Below, piece by piece: positions 36,001 through 60,000 of a stretch of 64,000 nt of DNA. Source of the DNA: Sphyrna mokarran (Eukaryota); assembly GCA_024679065.1 (NCBI GenBank), contig JAGIQG010000011.1, positions 42,098,001 to 42,162,000 of the forward strand, in the 5' to 3' direction. Every line of letters begins with the position of its first letter. The stretch's first letter is position 1. Made by a program: the position numbers.

Positions 36001-39000
36001 CAGTAACTGGAGATGCAACCTTCTCTAAGTGTTGAGCTAAATATAATACAATTTCATTTTTCAAAAAATCTAATTTAATAATCCAACCCTTCTCATCACC
36101 AACACCCGCATTCCCCCCAAAAAAGGATAAATTAATCTTAATCATTAGAAACAGGCATGAGCTTAAACAATTTTTTTTTGGAATATTCAAATTCAATATT
36201 TTCAAAATTGAAATAGAAACAATAGTCTCTATTCATTGCTCCACAATTTAGCTTGTGTTTTGAGAGGGTTTTTTTGTGTGCAGGAGAATCCAAGGTACAT
36301 TACAAAACCTGAGTGTACAGCTTTTTCAGCAGCTTTCAGCCATCTGTTGCTCAATACCTTATACACATATTTTACAATTCAGGCCACTTCCACTCATTGT
36401 ATCCCTTAGAGGACTCAGCTGTATTCTGGGATCAGAACTAAACTTGAGATTTTTCAAAGGGCTGAATTATAAAAAAAGTATGAAATGTAAATGTCAAAGA
36501 TATGTACATTTTTAAATGTAACTGAATTAATAAGATTTTTGTTCCACTATAGTGTTTCACCTGACTGCATCTCTCCCCTGTCTTCGTCTAGCCTCTATTA
36601 AAGAGCAGCATTTTTTCCAGATGAGAAAAGATTTATCTTACAGTAGGGATTAACATCACAGATCTGAATCAAGTTATCTGCAATCTGAACTTCTCAATCC
36701 AGCAATTGACAAGGAATTAAAATATTCAAGTCAGTGTTTCTGCTATTATGTAATAGTGATTTCATTTTCTAATATATACATTAATGCTCTGAGGCTTCAA
36801 TTTTTAAAACATATTTGATTAAAAATGACATTGGTATGCATTTATATTAAAAGGCAAGCATGGGATGCATTGCATTGAACCAATCAATACTTGTCACTTA
36901 TCGGTTTTAGTCCATTTAGGAACAGTAGAGAATTGGAAGGTTTTCTAGTGCAGGTAACAGTAATTGGGAAAAACTATGTGCATTCAAAAGACAGTTTCAA
37001 ACTCCAGCTTTGGCTGTCTTTTGACCTCTGCTACCCTCTATAGGTGAGTTTTACCAAATGTCAGCAGAGCTGTTTTAGTTCACTTTGCAGGATTGGTGAA
37101 TTCCATGACAATATAGGTGGAAAAAAGATAGCCAGAAGACACCTCTGAAAGAAGATCGCCAGAAGATCTCTAGTCTCCACTAACAAAATTACATCTGCAT
37201 CCATTAAAGTATGCAAATTGTTATTCTCTTCTCATTTGTAAAAATGAGAAAATTGGATGGAGGGAAGAGAACACAATATATAGGGCACATATATTCAGGC
37301 CAAGTTTTCTCATTCTGTAGTATAGTATTTAGTCCATAAAAAGTACTTTACAGCCAGCAGTAGTATCATGTGTTTTAAAATTTAACATGTATTTCTGATT
37401 CTTCTTTAAGGCCTCCACAAAATCTCAATAATGGCCAAATTTTAGACATTATTGTGAAAGCTAGAATCTGTGAACCATTCCATAGTATTATAATTTAAAA
37501 AGCTGTAGGTGATAGGGCAATACTTGTTGTTGGTTCATCACTTTTTTTAAAAAGAGGGAACAGAAAGTAGCAGCAGCTGAAGTTGTACATCTTTTTTTGT
37601 ACAGATCATAATTAATTCTGTAAAATAAGTCAGGGGACATCTTCATTTTCTAAACTATGGAAATCGAGAGTTTAAAACCCTCAAAAGTGCGCGGTACTGT
37701 AATACTGTATTATAAAAACAGAACTGGGTCAGTATTGTGTCTTAGGCAGGCATCCAAAAGACTAACCAAATTACAAGGCTTAACTTGCTGACAACAGATT
37801 TTTTTTTTAATGAAACTGTACATTATTTAGCTGTAAACAGGCTAACCTTATGTAGAGGCATATGGTGCACATGCTTCTTTAATTAAACACACGTACTGAT
37901 TTAGATAGCTAAAGATCACATATGTCTTTAGAAATTAAGTATTTTCTAAGCTGTGAACAATGATTACTACATTCAGTTTTACACATCTTTATTAACTATA
38001 TAACTAGTGTAGTCATTCCTTCTCTAATTTATTGACAACAGTCACTAACAATGATACCCTGTGTGAGATTACCAGATTCAAATAAATCTAATTACCAATT
38101 ATTTAATGTCAGAATCTGTCTAACTATGTTCCAAATTTAGACTGTTCATTGAGACTTTTTGAATTTATTTTCTTCAAATTTAGGGAACAGGAGTTTGGAA
38201 TGATTTTGTATCAACTGTCAATGCTACTCATGATATTTTTTGTATACTCTTTCTTCCTTGGAATGTGGGCTTTGTTGGCTAGGCCAGTATTTATTGCCCA
38301 TTTCTACCGATAGGTCACAGGGTTACTCCTACAAGCCTCATACTTCCATGCATCCTTCCTCTCCCCCCACCCCACCTTCCAAATGAACCTTGATAATCCA
38401 ACATAGCTCAACACTCAAATTAGTGGTATAGACAAGCAGGTCAGTTAGGGTACTTCCCTCACATCAAATTAGGCTGCTGATTTACAAATTACAGTGGCAA
38501 ATGCATTTTGCATTAATTTGGATCTGTAAGTATAGCAGCACTGCAGTATACAGCTGATGAGAGTTTTCAAAAAAGTTGAGATACAATAAAAAAATTTGTA
38601 TAGTCAATTTGAAGTTGTGACCTAAAATTGCATAATGTTGAATAATAAAGAAAAAGTGCTTTTAGGAGCACTGAAATCATTTAAAGTACTTTCCCTGGAA
38701 TTCAAAATGATATTTAAAATACTGTTATCTCATTTCTTAGCAGCATTTGATGCCATTATGGGAACACAATCTTCCAACTATAATATTTATTTCATAGAGA
38801 AACAATTCACTTAAGATAAACAATAAGGAATAGTTTCCCCCAAGATCTATAGCAATGAATCTTGAGAAAAATATAATTCTCTTTACTCACTCCTGTTAGA
38901 ACACGGAGTCTGCAATTAGCAGATCAGTCAGGAGAAGGGTACAATGCATCACAACTGCATCTTTCTAAGCATATCAACTGACACTGGTGGATGAAAGGTA

Positions 39001-57000: not shown

Positions 57001-60000
57001 AATTCTATCAACCTCCAATCTGAAAAACAACCATTTACCATGACTCACTATTTTCTGTTCTTAACTCTTTTTTTTTTATCCAAACCAATACTCACCCTAT
57101 TCCACGAGTCTCAATGTTGTTAACCAACATTTAATATGGTACTTTATCAAACACGTGCTTAAAATCCATATAGATATATTGAGCCCATTCCTCCTAATCT
57201 TCTGTTATTGCATTAAGAACGCAATTAATTAATCAAGCTCTCTTTGATTAACTCCTACTTTTTGAAGTGTCTGTTTTTTTTTTCCTGATTATTATTTCTA
57301 GAACCTTACCCATCCTGATGTTCAACCTGAATAAGAATATCCATATACCCTTTCTTGGATAAGGATGCCTGTCACATATGCCACTTTCTAATCCTCTGGC
57401 ACCTCCCCATATCCAGAGAAGATTATAACAAACCACTTCTTATTGCAACCGAAGATGCAAGCAATCCAGATCTGGCAACTTATCTATTCTTAAGCATACT
57501 ATTTGAGTTATCTTTCAGTACACCTTGCCCATTAATTTTCACCCCATCCATTACCTCTGACATCTCCATTTCTACTCATATTTTGTTTGCATCCTTTTCC
57601 CAAATAAATACAAATACAAAGTACTCATCGAGTATTTTAGACCTATCCTGTGCTTCTAAGCATATGTCACTCTTTGTCTGTAAGAGAGCCTAGCCAACCT
57701 TTCACTACCTACATACCAAAGATATTTTGGTACAAAATCTTTCGATTCCCTCTTATGGTTAACTATCATTCTATTTTCATATTCACTCTATGTCAGTCAT
57801 ATTTTCCTCTTCAATATCTCTATCAATATTAAAAAAAGTCACATCCAGTGGTTTTTGCAGGCCCTTTAATTCCCAACTCAGCAGAATCCCAGAAGATGGC
57901 TTATGCCCACAACATAGTCTGAAGACAAATATCTCAATTGATTTACATAATATGCAAGTAAGGACAATTAGAATTATGAAAAATAAGGAAAAAGATGCAG
58001 GTGGATATATCAAATTACACCTTGCACTGCACGTGAAATAACATTCCCTTTCAAATTATATTTTTATCAAGCTGCTTTTCCTTAGAGGCAGAGGAGCTAT
58101 ACTCCCTCACTATTCTATTCAACGGTTAAAAAAAAAGAGAAGATATATCTTTCCCACCACCCCCATTCCATCCTTTCTGCCTAAAAGAAGTCTCACAATA
58201 CCAGGTTAAAGTCCAACAGATTTATTTGGAATTACAAGCTTTTGGACCGCTGCTCCTTTATCAGATGACTCATCTGATGAAGGAGCAGCACTCTGAAAGA
58301 TGTACCCATCCCAATCCAACACTGGCATCTCCACATCATCCTTTCTGCCAAACAGGGTTTTGCATTGCATCTTCTGGCATGCATAAAAAAGTCTCCAGCA
58401 CCAATATCTTTAGCTTTCTTCGAAAGGTCTGATATAATTTCAATGCATAATATTCTTCAGCAGTTTAAATGGACAGTTACAATCCAAGTAAGAAGTCAAA
58501 ATAATAGCTATGAGACTTTTTCACAAAAATAGCAATTCTCTTCAAATCAAATATATCACTAGCAATAGAGAGATAGTGGTCACTTTAACATAGAAGCTAA
58601 GGTAGATAAAGCCTATAGAAATAAAAGTGCAGTGTGTCAGATTTACAAAATAATATACTTCATCTTTTAGGATGGAATCACAGTGCACAAATTTCAAATA
58701 AAATATGCTGAAAACAATAGAACATTATGTAACATAAAGTGACTGAACCAAATGGATCGCAGAAATGCTAAAGTTCAGATAACTCTTACTTGCACATTAT
58801 CAATCAAGTTATTAAATGCAAATATAAAAATTGTTTCCTTCAAGCATATTCACAAGGTATTTAAAATATTTAATAAGCTACCTTTATAAACATCTTGTAA
58901 AGTGTGCTGCTCAGCAAATTCAGAATTTTCTTCAAGGATAAAATGCGTACCTGTTGATATAACTTAATGCGATATATGACGGCTGCTGTTGTTCTTGCCG
59001 TTCCAAAACCTTGGGGTCATTTTCTGTTGAGAGAATGCACCATAAACAATGAGTTTAACAAAAATATTCCTCTCATATAATTTTAAAAGTAGCTATTAAA
59101 TACTGGTTTGAAGCGAGATGTCAGATAAACTTCACCTGGAGTATTGCTTCTACATAATACAGACAACTCAATGGAGGGACTATCTGCCTCCTTTCTACCT
59201 TGTCTTTCCAATATAAAGTAGGATGGTAATGAGATATCTTAAAATAAATCCTTACCCAGTCCTCTCAACTGAGGTCCACATGATACAATTTCTGAGTGAG
59301 CCTCGAAATAGGTGCTGAGTAGTCATGCACTGAAGCAGGCAGAAATCTCTTTACAATATCTGAATTGTGGGTTTTAATGCCAATGTTTAGGACCGTGAAG
59401 CAACTGTGATGTTCCACTGGGATATGCACATGATCTGTCTGGTGGAACTCAGTGCACAACAGGAGTGTTCTTCTCTTCAGAAAAACTCAAACGCTCTATA
59501 CTCAGGGTGATCATGCATCATCGTTTTGGTACCAATTTCATTATCCCCCATCTCCACTTCCTCGTACCGCCTCAATCCCTCCCATTAATGCACTGATTGT
59601 ACGCCGCTGCGTGGGGAGTTGCTCCCACACACCAAAATCATCCGTCAGTATGCACCAGCAGCTCACTAAATCTAACAACACCCAACCAAAAATTAGATCC
59701 GGCCACTCAGCATTGGATCCACATCATTGAAATCCCAATGCGTGATAGTCATTGTGAGATGGCGGTTCTGGTTATATCACCTGCATGCCTCTGTCTTGGG
59801 TTCTTGTAAAGGGATGAGTAGCCATCTCTTCAAGGGATGTCCTTCATCCCAGAAGAATTTTTCATAAATTTCTCAAGTAGAGTGAAGAGATGTGGCAGCC
59901 TGAATTGGCAGAGGATGAAATAGTCATGGCAGTGTGTACTCGGAGGAAGATCTAATTTTAGTCATGGGACAGTTGATCTTTGAGGCAGAGGAAGTCCTTC

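What the first reader, a model, noticed from the sequence alone, without database searches (positions are those of the whole stretch)
38949..59023. Intact JAZF1 paralogue, probably the HoxD-linked 'Jazf2' ohnologue absent from mammals
Seen: four exons with canonical splice sites, conserved lengths and one open frame to TGA, with all zinc-finger Cys/His residues intact. Exon 3 is only about half identical (roughly 35/65 by eye) to human JAZF1 as recalled, although true JAZF1 orthologues are very conserved. Introns 2-4 are only about 13, 3.3 and 3.2 kb. Established: JAZF1 lies tail-to-tail with TAX1BP1 next to HoxA, yet no TAX1BP1 exon is visible in the 38 kb downstream here. Recalled and needing verification: comparative Hox-synteny work described a Jazf2 in the Atp5g3-Lnp interval beside HoxD, kept in cartilaginous fish and eroded elsewhere. 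Inference: this is that little-studied gene, a possible second JAZF subunit for NuA4/TIP60-type complexes.
[Added by the scan's program, not by the reader: the finding's places include an assembly gap (unread letters, written N; its length is only estimated) at 42649 to 42780. Whether the letters on both sides are continuous or in frame is not known: test that first.]
Basis: partly seen in the sequence, partly recalled or inferred. Interest (0 to 1): 0.8.

Follow-up and report, generated by a model that had tools for sequence, protein, structure and literature searches.

The report
A second JAZF gene in sharks
The window holds the last four exons of an intact shark gene that is a diverged sister copy of the chromatin cofactor gene JAZF1, already listed in databases as 'JAZF1-like' and probably an old duplicate lost in bony vertebrates.

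Summary
Four minus-strand exons (59023-58951, 45968-45772, 42445-42276, 39125-38949) have AG/GT splice sites and one frame ending in TGA. The N gap (42649-42780) lies in intron 3, 203 nt from the exon 4 acceptor, and hides no coding sequence. Exon 1, which holds the first zinc finger, is not in the window.

The exons are 100%, 100% and 96.6% identical (exons 3, 4, 5) to the RefSeq protein 'JAZF1-like' of Chiloscyllium punctatum. They are 98-100% identical to that of Heptranchias perlo. So the window is shark DNA and the gene is already annotated.

Sharks and a chimaera also carry a separate, near-tetrapod JAZF1. Exon 3 here is only 50% identical to it. This is therefore a paralogue and not JAZF1.

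The age of the duplication is unresolved. The best tree puts the gene outside all vertebrate JAZF1 (support 92/53). AU tests do not reject a shark-side duplication (p 0.25 and 0.36).

HoxD linkage could not be tested because no flanking gene lies in the window. One paper mentions a mouse 'jazf2 pseudogene' beside Atp5g3/Atf2.

The likely function is JAZF1-like, as a cofactor of TR4 and NuA4/TIP60. This is inferred. Interest is modest.

The parts
58951..59023 (-). Coding exon 2 (73 nt; residues 40-62 plus split codons 39 and 63). It holds the first half of the TR4-interaction helix (Q51-N62 at 58988-58953).
   Evidence: Sequence and splice sites. tblastn to P0002 residues 39-64: 25 of 26 identical, and the one mismatch lies past the donor site. 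Match to the JAZF1 peptide of PDB 7xva_B: 10 of 12 identical.
45772..45968 (-). Coding exon 3 (197 nt; residues 64-128 plus split codons). 45968-45932 encodes the rest of the TR4-interaction helix (to Q75). The remainder is a Ser/Pro-rich linker and the most diverged part of the gene.
   Evidence: 64 of 64 identical to P0002, 63 of 64 to P0003, 32 of 64 to shark JAZF1 and 36 of 64 to frog JAZF1. Residues 81-142 are predicted disordered, pLDDT 30-38.
42276..42445 (-). Coding exon 4 (170 nt; residues 130-185). It holds the acidic SDSDESW patch and the first half (CPVPGC) of zinc finger 2.
   Evidence: 57 of 57 identical to P0002. S142, D143, S144, D145, S147, C175 and C180 are invariant in 18 JAZF proteins.
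38949..39125 (-). Coding exon 5 (residues 186-243 plus TGA). It holds the second half of finger 2 (H193, H198) and finger 3 (C210, C212, H225, H230).
   Evidence: 56 of 58 identical to P0002 and 58 of 58 to Heptranchias P0003. Invariant columns. Fingers modelled at pLDDT 71-83.
42649..42780 (.). Assembly gap (132 N) inside intron 3, 203 nt upstream of the exon 4 acceptor on the gene's strand. It does not touch coding sequence.
   Evidence: Exon 3 and exon 4 residues are contiguous in the orthologue P0002.

Best explanation
Window 38949-59023 (minus strand) holds exons 2-5 of an intact, conserved shark gene of the JAZF family. [quoted passage not shown] It is a paralogue of JAZF1, not its orthologue, and sharks keep a separate, nearly invariant JAZF1. 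This much is shown (about 0.95).

Most likely (about 0.65, inferred) the copy dates from before the split of cartilaginous and bony vertebrates. It would then be the 'Jazf2' partner of JAZF1 in the Hox paralogons: a live gene in elasmobranchs and a pseudogene in mouse.

Mechanism (inferred from retained motifs, not tested): the protein is a small nuclear C2H2 zinc-finger adaptor built like JAZF1. Its parts in order are:
- an N-terminal finger in exon 1, outside the window;
- a helix that in human JAZF1 clamps the ligand-binding domain of the orphan receptor TR4/NR2C2;
- a disordered Ser/Pro linker;
- an acidic SDSDESW patch;
- two C-terminal fingers.

It probably binds TR4/TR2-type receptors, and possibly NuA4/TIP60, as JAZF1 does. 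The rewritten linker would give it different regulation or partners.
For: Identity:
- The exon 3 search found 3 proteins at E <= 0.001 among 180 candidates. All three are shark 'JAZF1-like' records or the same gene's older model, at 97-100% identity.

Separate JAZF1 in cartilaginous fish:
- P0120, P0115 and P0095 read almost like tetrapod JAZF1.
- The window is only 50% identical to P0120 in exon 3, 90% in exon 4 (42 aligned residues) and 88% in exon 5.

Constraint:
- The two shark orthologues are 98% identical over 243 columns.
- The frame is open and all four acceptors and three donors are canonical.

Gene structure:
- Database JAZF1 isoforms with foreign N-termini or insertions switch at the same residue positions as the exon borders here (39/40, 63/64, 128/129).
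- So the copy arose at the DNA level and not by retroposition.

Age:
- With 7 outgroup rows, the gene is sister to all vertebrate JAZF1 (92/53) and cartilaginous-fish JAZF1 forms its own group (84/96).
- In 30 columns cartilaginous-fish and slowly evolving bony-fish JAZF1 agree with each other and differ from this gene. In 5 of them this gene shares the hagfish JAZF1 residue (R77, R79, A82, C139, D168).
- Only 1 column links it solely to cartilaginous-fish JAZF1.

Literature:
- One passage treats jazf1/2 like atp5g1/2/3 and atf2/7 and places a mouse 'jazf2 pseudogene' with Atp5g3 and Atf2 near Hoxd (PMC9976460, passage seen).

Function:
- 11 of 14 JAZF1 residues that contact TR4 are identical. 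The other 3 changes are conservative: T54S, V56I, M65L. The contact list is from PMC9943680 (passages); residues are.
- PDB 7xva_B matches residues 51-74 of P0002 at E 1.9e-7.
- Finger Cys/His and the SDSDESW patch are invariant.
- JAZF1 is a stoichiometric NuA4/TIP60 partner (PMC9296003). Its first 128 residues, equal to exons 1-3, bring TRRAP binding (PMC9637993).
Against: - The age is not settled. Trees holding cartilaginous-fish JAZF1 and this gene together are not rejected (delta lnL 4.86, p-AU 0.247; delta lnL 2.14, p-AU 0.357).
- The 23-row tree put the starfish outgroup on the cartilaginous-fish JAZF1 branch, with a 92/97 split. That split fits neither scenario.
- The 20-row tree is a polytomy.
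- The gene has a long stem branch (0.25-0.64), so its basal place may be long-branch attraction.
- In 17 of the 30 columns it is simply the odd one out.
- No synteny evidence exists: no other gene was found in the window.
- No copy from Callorhinchus or any bony vertebrate appeared among the 120 listed of 450 hits, nor in the exon 3 search.
- The Jazf2 literature I could see is a single sentence.
- Exon 1 and the promoter are outside the window, and expression is not shown.
- Exon 3 lies within the JAZF1 part that carries TRRAP binding and is the most changed. NuA4/TIP60 binding may therefore be lost.
Confidence: 0.65

Rival explanations
1. A duplicate of JAZF1 made within the cartilaginous-fish (or elasmobranch) lineage. 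It changed fast at first and then froze. It is not a 2R ohnologue and is not tied to HoxD.
For: AU tests do not reject a clade of cartilaginous-fish JAZF1 plus this gene (p 0.247; p 0.357). One column (V116) is shared only with cartilaginous-fish JAZF1. Named records of this gene type came only from sharks. Its long stem branch could pull it towards the outgroup (warns that long branches meet).
Against: No best tree joins it to cartilaginous-fish JAZF1. Five columns share the hagfish state against all jawed-vertebrate JAZF1, versus one column the other way. A mouse 'jazf2 pseudogene' in the HoxD neighbourhood (PMC9976460) implies a second JAZF gene older than sharks.
Confidence: 0.27
2. It is the shark's true JAZF1 orthologue, merely fast-evolving.
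For: Same exon plan and 76% overall identity of its orthologue P0002 to frog JAZF1.
Against: The same genus (Chiloscyllium plagiosum, P0120), Heterodontus (P0115) and Callorhinchus (P0095) have another gene that reads almost like tetrapod JAZF1. The window is only 50% identical to that gene in exon 3. No CALCOCO/TAX1BP1-type domain turned up downstream.
Confidence: 0.01
3. A decaying or unexpressed copy (pseudogene) that only looks intact in these four exons.
For: Exon 1 and the promoter are not in the window. No expression data are available here. The presumed mouse counterpart is called a pseudogene.
Against: The frame is open, all splice sites are canonical and every finger ligand is kept. 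The two shark orders are 98% identical at protein level. The window is 98-100% identical per exon to Heptranchias. The full-length RefSeq models include exon 1.
Confidence: 0.04

Closest known systems
[quoted passage not shown]
   Same: The same gene. Exons 3 and 4 are identical to P0002 and exon 5 is identical to P0003. The exon borders fit.
   Different: There are two substitutions against P0002 in exon 5 (S to T, I to M), so the window comes from another shark. The 18-residue extra exon of the Heptranchias isoform has no match in the window.
JAZF1 of jawed vertebrates (TR4/NR2C2 corepressor and NuA4/TIP60 subunit)
   Same: The five-exon plan has the same borders. The three fingers, the TR4-binding helix (11 of 14 contact residues), the SDSDESW patch and the 243-residue length are shared.
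   Different: The linker of exon 3 is about half identical (32-36 of 64). Two tyrosines of the acidic patch are changed (Y132L, Y139C) and the C-terminal tail differs. The introns seen here are short (13, 3.3, 3.2 kb). No TAX1BP1-type neighbour was found.
Mouse 'jazf2 pseudogene' near Atp5g3/Atf2/Hoxd (named in PMC9976460)
   Same: A second JAZF gene, placed by that paper in the HoxD neighbourhood and paired with jazf1 as 'jazf1/2'. It is the natural candidate orthologue.
   Different: It is called a pseudogene there, while the shark gene is intact. I made no sequence comparison, because vertebrate genomes are not searchable here.
Hagfish JAZF pair (Myxine glutinosa P0024 'JAZF1' and P0146 'JAZF1-like')
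   Same: A second lineage with two JAZF genes. P0024 shares five residues with the shark gene against all jawed-vertebrate JAZF1.
   Different: The two hagfish genes group with each other (99/97). P0146 is extremely diverged (branch length 3.5). One-to-one orthology with the shark gene is not shown.

Membership tests
JAZF family (JAZF1-type C2H2 zinc-finger cofactors) | Two C-terminal C2H2 fingers with all Cys/His ligands, the first of them split by an intron | tested here: met
   C175, C180 | H193, H198 and C210, C212, H225, H230 are present in window exons 4 and 5. They are invariant in 18 family members.
JAZF family (JAZF1-type C2H2 zinc-finger cofactors) | N-terminal C2H2 finger (exon 1) | not testable with these tools
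   Exon 1 is outside the window: no tblastn hit for residues 1-38. It is present in the orthologues P0002 and P0003.
JAZF family (JAZF1-type C2H2 zinc-finger cofactors) | Significant sequence match to named JAZF proteins, and Pfam domains of the family | tested here: met
   Per-exon tblastn E values run from 1e-11 to 8e-37. Single exons stay below the Pfam cut-offs (zf-C2H2_aberr 15 bits against 27; zf-C2H2 16.2 against 25.2). The full-length orthologue carries precomputed PF17017, PF16159 and PF00096.
JAZF family (JAZF1-type C2H2 zinc-finger cofactors) | TR4/NR2C2-interaction helix (JAZF1 residues 51-75) | tested here: inconclusive
   The sequence is kept: 11 of 14 contact residues are identical and 3 are conservative changes. 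PDB 7xva_B matches it. Binding itself was not tested.
JAZF1 orthologue group | Near-invariant sequence across jawed vertebrates, including the exon 3 linker | tested here: not met
   Exon 3 is 50% identical to shark JAZF1 and 56% to frog JAZF1. Shark and tetrapod JAZF1 barely differ from each other.
JAZF1 orthologue group | Only JAZF locus of the genome; tail-to-tail with TAX1BP1 | tested here: not met
   A second, JAZF1-type gene exists in Chiloscyllium, Heterodontus and Callorhinchus. No CALCOCO/TAX1BP1-type Pfam hit appeared downstream of the stop codon. The ORFs of 55 aa or more (313 of 318 window-wide, both strands) and all 220 plus-strand ORFs of 33-54 aa in 1-38,948 were scanned. Small minus-strand ORFs were not scanned.
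'Jazf2', the HoxD-linked ohnologue of JAZF1 | Position between ATP5MC3/ATF2 and LNPK/EVX2/HOXD | not testable with these tools
   No flanking gene lies in the 64 kb window. No shark genome context is available.
'Jazf2', the HoxD-linked ohnologue of JAZF1 | Branches outside the clade of all jawed-vertebrate JAZF1 | tested here: inconclusive
   Favoured (92/53) and by 5 columns against 1. The alternative is not rejected (p 0.247 and 0.357). One search gave an odd rooting.
NuA4/TIP60 complex subunit | Stable co-purification with TIP60/EP400/TRRAP through the N-terminal 128 residues | not testable with these tools
   This is known for human JAZF1 (PMC9296003; PMC9637993). Here exon 3, part of that region, is the most diverged.

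The most novel reading that the evidence does not exclude
The gene is the last working copy of Jazf2. On this reading it is a 2R ohnologue of JAZF1 sitting inside the HoxD 5' regulatory landscape. Elasmobranchs have kept it under strong constraint, while bony vertebrates let it decay into the Atp5g3-Lnp gene desert. It would give sharks a second adaptor that couples TR4/TR2-type receptors, and perhaps NuA4/TIP60, to chromatin. It would also offer a direct way to ask what that desert once encoded.
Probability: 0.5. Interest if true: 0.45.

Novelty: new member of a known kind. Interest (0 to 1): 0.3.

Why it matters
JAZF1 is treated as a single-copy gene in the functional literature I saw: a subunit of the NuA4/TIP60 acetyltransferase complex, a TR4 corepressor and a fusion partner in endometrial sarcoma. 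A second copy conserved across shark orders would be a natural experiment. It keeps the fingers and the receptor-binding helix but has a rewritten disordered linker. That contrast could show which parts of JAZF1 serve which partner.

If the gene lies beside HoxD, it would also mark a case where a coding gene was lost from what became a well-studied regulatory desert in tetrapods. As it stands, this is a correctly spotted but already annotated gene, and its deeper history is untested.

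Tried and rejected
- **Pfam on single exons.** Only sub-threshold finger hits, so of no use for naming. 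The first attempt failed on a frame slip and was corrected.
- **The listing of cluster members.** I wanted the 29 members of the P0002 cluster. The species range of the gene within cartilaginous fishes therefore stays unknown.
- **Phylogeny.** I built three trees and ran two AU tests. JAZF1 is too conserved and the outgroups too distant to date the duplication. I dropped hagfish P0146 after because its branch length was 3.5.
- **Flanking genes.**
  - Pfam on 313 of the 318 ORFs of 55 aa or more. The 5 left out are the JAZF exon ORFs themselves.
  - Pfam on all 220 plus-strand ORFs of 33-54 aa in 1-38,948.
  - Nothing real was found. One nominal pass (plant 'VQ' motif, 20.7 bits against a 20.5 cut-off) lies in a minisatellite and I reject it.
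  - Small minus-strand ORFs were not scanned.
- **Rfam on the whole window.** 0 matches.
- **Literature.**
  - 'Jazf2' occurs in 4 papers, only 1 of them relevant. 'jazf1-like', 'jazf1l', 'jazf-2' and 'jazf 2' gave nothing relevant.
  - Four further searches found no account of a shark Jazf2.
  - Lee et al. 2006 and my guessed id for the elephant-shark Hox paper are not held.
  - PMC9004415 and the 2026 preprint had nothing on this gene. Supplements were not opened.
- **AlphaFold2 model of P0002.** Mean pLDDT is 56.7. I used it only to tell ordered from disordered parts, and I made no fold search on it.
- **Complex prediction.** Not run, because no shark TR4 sequence was at hand.
- **The poly(A) signal.** AATAAA is too common for it to be placed.
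- **Joined model.** Searches from the window were made exon by exon, and full-length work used the database orthologue P0002.

Full report
**What is there**

On the minus strand I read four exons:
- Exon 2, 59023-58951 (73 nt).
- Exon 3, 45968-45772 (197 nt).
- Exon 4, 42445-42276 (170 nt).
- Exon 5, 39125-38949 (177 nt, ending in TGA).

Each exon follows an AG. Exons 2-4 are each followed by GT (gtacgc, gttggt, gtacgt). The split codons agree: AG|G gives Arg63 and G|GC gives Gly129. Introns are 12,982, 3,326 and 3,150 nt.

**The gap**

The only N run is 42649-42780. It lies inside intron 3, 203 nt upstream of the exon 4 acceptor on the gene's strand, and no frame crosses it. In the orthologous database protein the residues of exon 3 run directly into those of exon 4. 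No coding exon is hidden there.

**What is missing**

tblastn with full-length shark proteins found no match for residues 1-38 anywhere in the window. Exon 1, with the first zinc finger and the start codon, therefore lies beyond position 64000, and intron 1 is longer than 4,977 nt. 'All fingers intact' holds for the two fingers encoded here. The third is outside the window.

**How I searched**

I searched the window exon by exon. For analyses that need a full-length protein I used the named database orthologue P0002.

**Identity**

The exon 3 translation found 3 proteins at E <= 0.001 among 180 candidates:
- An older model of the same gene (P0001).
- The Heptranchias perlo protein of the same name (P0003, 97% identical).

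Per-exon identity of the window:

| Compared with | Exon 2 | Exon 3 | Exon 4 | Exon 5 |
|---|---|---|---|---|
| P0002 (C. punctatum JAZF1-like) | 25/26 | 64/64 | 57/57 | 56/58 |
| P0003 (Heptranchias JAZF1-like) | 25/26 | 63/64 | 56/57 | 58/58 |

The single exon 2 mismatch lies past the donor site. The window is therefore shark DNA, from a species other than C. punctatum. The gene is already annotated automatically in RefSeq.

**Paralogue, not JAZF1**

A search with P0002 gave 450 proteins at E <= 1e-5 among 840 candidates, of which 120 were listed. Among the listed rows are three further records from cartilaginous fishes:
- 'JAZF1b isoform X2' of Chiloscyllium plagiosum (P0120).
- The same name from Heterodontus francisci (P0115).
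- 'JAZF zinc finger 1' of Callorhinchus milii (P0095).

Their sequences read almost like tetrapod JAZF1.

Identity of the window to JAZF1-type proteins:

| Compared with | Exon 2 | Exon 3 | Exon 4 | Exon 5 |
|---|---|---|---|---|
| P0120 (shark JAZF1) | not aligned | 32/64 (50%) | 38/42 | 50/57 |
| P0004 (frog JAZF1) | 18/26 | 36/64 | 39/42 | 50/57 |

So cartilaginous fishes carry two JAZF loci, and the window holds the diverged one. I made no comparison with human sequence.

**Is it alive?**

- The frame is open and the splice sites are canonical.
- Every Cys and His of fingers 2 and 3 and the SDSDESW patch fall in columns invariant across 18 family members.
- The two shark orthologues, from different orders, are 98% identical over 243 columns.
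- Database JAZF1 isoforms and mispredictions switch sequence at residues 39/40, 63/64 and 128/129. These are the exon borders seen here. The duplicate was therefore made at the DNA level with its introns, and it is not a retrocopy.
- Expression was not tested.

**Age of the duplication**

This is the weak point.

- *23-row tree* (starfish outgroups and both hagfish genes). The gene forms its own 100/100 group. The outgroup attached to cartilaginous-fish JAZF1, which fits no sensible scenario.
- *27-row tree* (five more outgroup rows, unnamed and invertebrate-like; very long hagfish P0146 removed). The gene is sister to all vertebrate JAZF1 (92/53). Cartilaginous-fish JAZF1 forms a group (84/96). 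The tool warned that long branches meet.
- *AU test on that tree*. A clade of cartilaginous-fish JAZF1 plus this gene is not rejected (delta lnL 4.86, p 0.247).
- *20-row tree* (hagfish JAZF1 as the only outgroup). The result is a polytomy, and the same constraint is again not rejected (delta lnL 2.14, p 0.357).

A column count is the last piece. In 30 columns cartilaginous-fish and slowly evolving bony-fish JAZF1 agree with each other and differ from this gene:
- In 5 columns this gene has the hagfish JAZF1 residue.
- In 17 columns JAZF1 has the hagfish residue.
- In 8 columns all three differ.
- Separately, only 1 column is shared solely with cartilaginous-fish JAZF1, and 2 solely with bony-fish JAZF1.

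The balance leans towards a duplication older than the split of cartilaginous and bony vertebrates. It does not exclude a shark-side duplication followed by a burst of change.

**Synteny**

The window holds nothing else recognisable.
- Pfam scans covered 313 of the 318 ORFs of 55 aa or more, on both strands. The 5 left out are the JAZF exon ORFs.
- Pfam scans also covered all 220 plus-strand ORFs of 33-54 aa downstream of the gene.
- No hit to CALCOCO/TAX1BP1, Lunapark, ATP synthase subunit c, bZIP or homeobox domains was found.
- The findings were a below-cut-off reverse-transcriptase fragment and one spurious motif hit inside a minisatellite.
- Rfam found nothing.

The absence of a TAX1BP1-type neighbour fits a non-JAZF1 locus. 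The positive claim of a position beside HoxD cannot be tested with the tools at hand.

**Literature**

- 'Jazf2' occurs in 4 papers of the library, only 1 of them relevant.
- In PMC9976460 I saw one passage. It names 'atp5g3, atf2, and the jazf2 pseudogene' in the mouse region that interacts with Hoxd promoters, and it pairs 'jazf1/2' with atp5g1/2/3 and atf2/7.
- Other searches gave no account of a shark Jazf2.
Their content remains recalled and unverified.
- I did not open supplementary files. They might list the gene.

**Likely function (inferred)**

PDB entry 7xva holds a 25-residue JAZF1 peptide that matches residues 51-74 of P0002 at E 1.9e-7. It also matches the window's exon 2 at 10 of 12 positions.

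The paper on that structure (PMC9943680, passages seen) lists 14 JAZF1 residues that touch the TR4 ligand-binding domain. The window keeps 11 of them and changes 3 conservatively (T54S, V56I, M65L).

An AlphaFold2 model of P0002 with an 18-row alignment has a mean pLDDT of 56.7:

| Region (residues) | pLDDT | Reading |
|---|---|---|
| N-terminal finger, 11-40 | 72-77 | ordered |
| Helix, 58-80 | about 60 | moderately ordered |
| Fingers 2 and 3, 170-235 | 71-83 | ordered |
| Linker, 81-142 | 30-38 | disordered |

The half-identical stretch of exon 3 is therefore mostly a disordered Ser/Pro linker.

JAZF1 is a stoichiometric partner of NuA4/TIP60 (PMC9296003). Its first 128 residues, equal to exons 1-3, bring TRRAP binding to the JAZF1-SUZ12 fusion (PMC9637993).

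The shark protein probably works as a JAZF1-like adaptor for TR4/TR2-type receptors. Whether it still joins NuA4/TIP60 is open, because the changed linker lies within the relevant part.

**Verdict**

The reading 'intact JAZF1 paralogue' is correct. 'HoxD-linked Jazf2 ohnologue' is plausible (about 0.5 for the full HoxD-linked reading, about 0.65 for the old duplication alone) but not shown.

The gene is already present in public annotation under an uninformative name, so it is a new member of a known kind rather than a new kind. Interest is modest.

Noticed in passing
window 11032-11477 and 11701-11919: A 33-bp minisatellite (13.6 copies, 90% matches) with a degenerate relative next to it. It explains the long ORFs at 10880-11593 and a nominal Pfam 'VQ motif' pass at 11239-11367.
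   Followed up: partly
window 51292-51909 (+), 61516-61964 (-), 63773-63955 (+): These are relics of retroelements. A 206-aa open LINE tail ORF lies in intron 2. It matches two differently framed pieces in intron 1 (34 of 52, E 2e-23; 43 of 90, E 3e-27). A reverse-transcriptase fragment scores below the Pfam cut-off (E 7.9e-6).
   Followed up: partly
window 10001-18000: A block of higher G+C (0.41-0.47, against 0.30-0.39 around it) lies about 21-29 kb downstream of the gene. No ORF with a family match and no Rfam match was found there.
   Followed up: partly
database proteins P0024 and P0146 (Myxine glutinosa): Hagfish also has two JAZF genes. One is JAZF1-like. The other is extremely diverged (51% identical to the shark protein, branch length 3.5). 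They group together in the one tree that held both (99/97).
   Followed up: partly
database protein P0003 (Heptranchias perlo isoform X1), residues 40-57: An 18-residue insertion lies between exons 1 and 2, suggesting an alternative exon in intron 1. No match to it was found in window 59024-64000.
   Followed up: partly
database names of P0115, P0120 versus P0002, P0003: RefSeq labels the true shark JAZF1 as '1b', a teleost duplicate name, and labels this older-looking paralogue '1-like'. The names do not reflect the relationships seen here.
   Followed up: no
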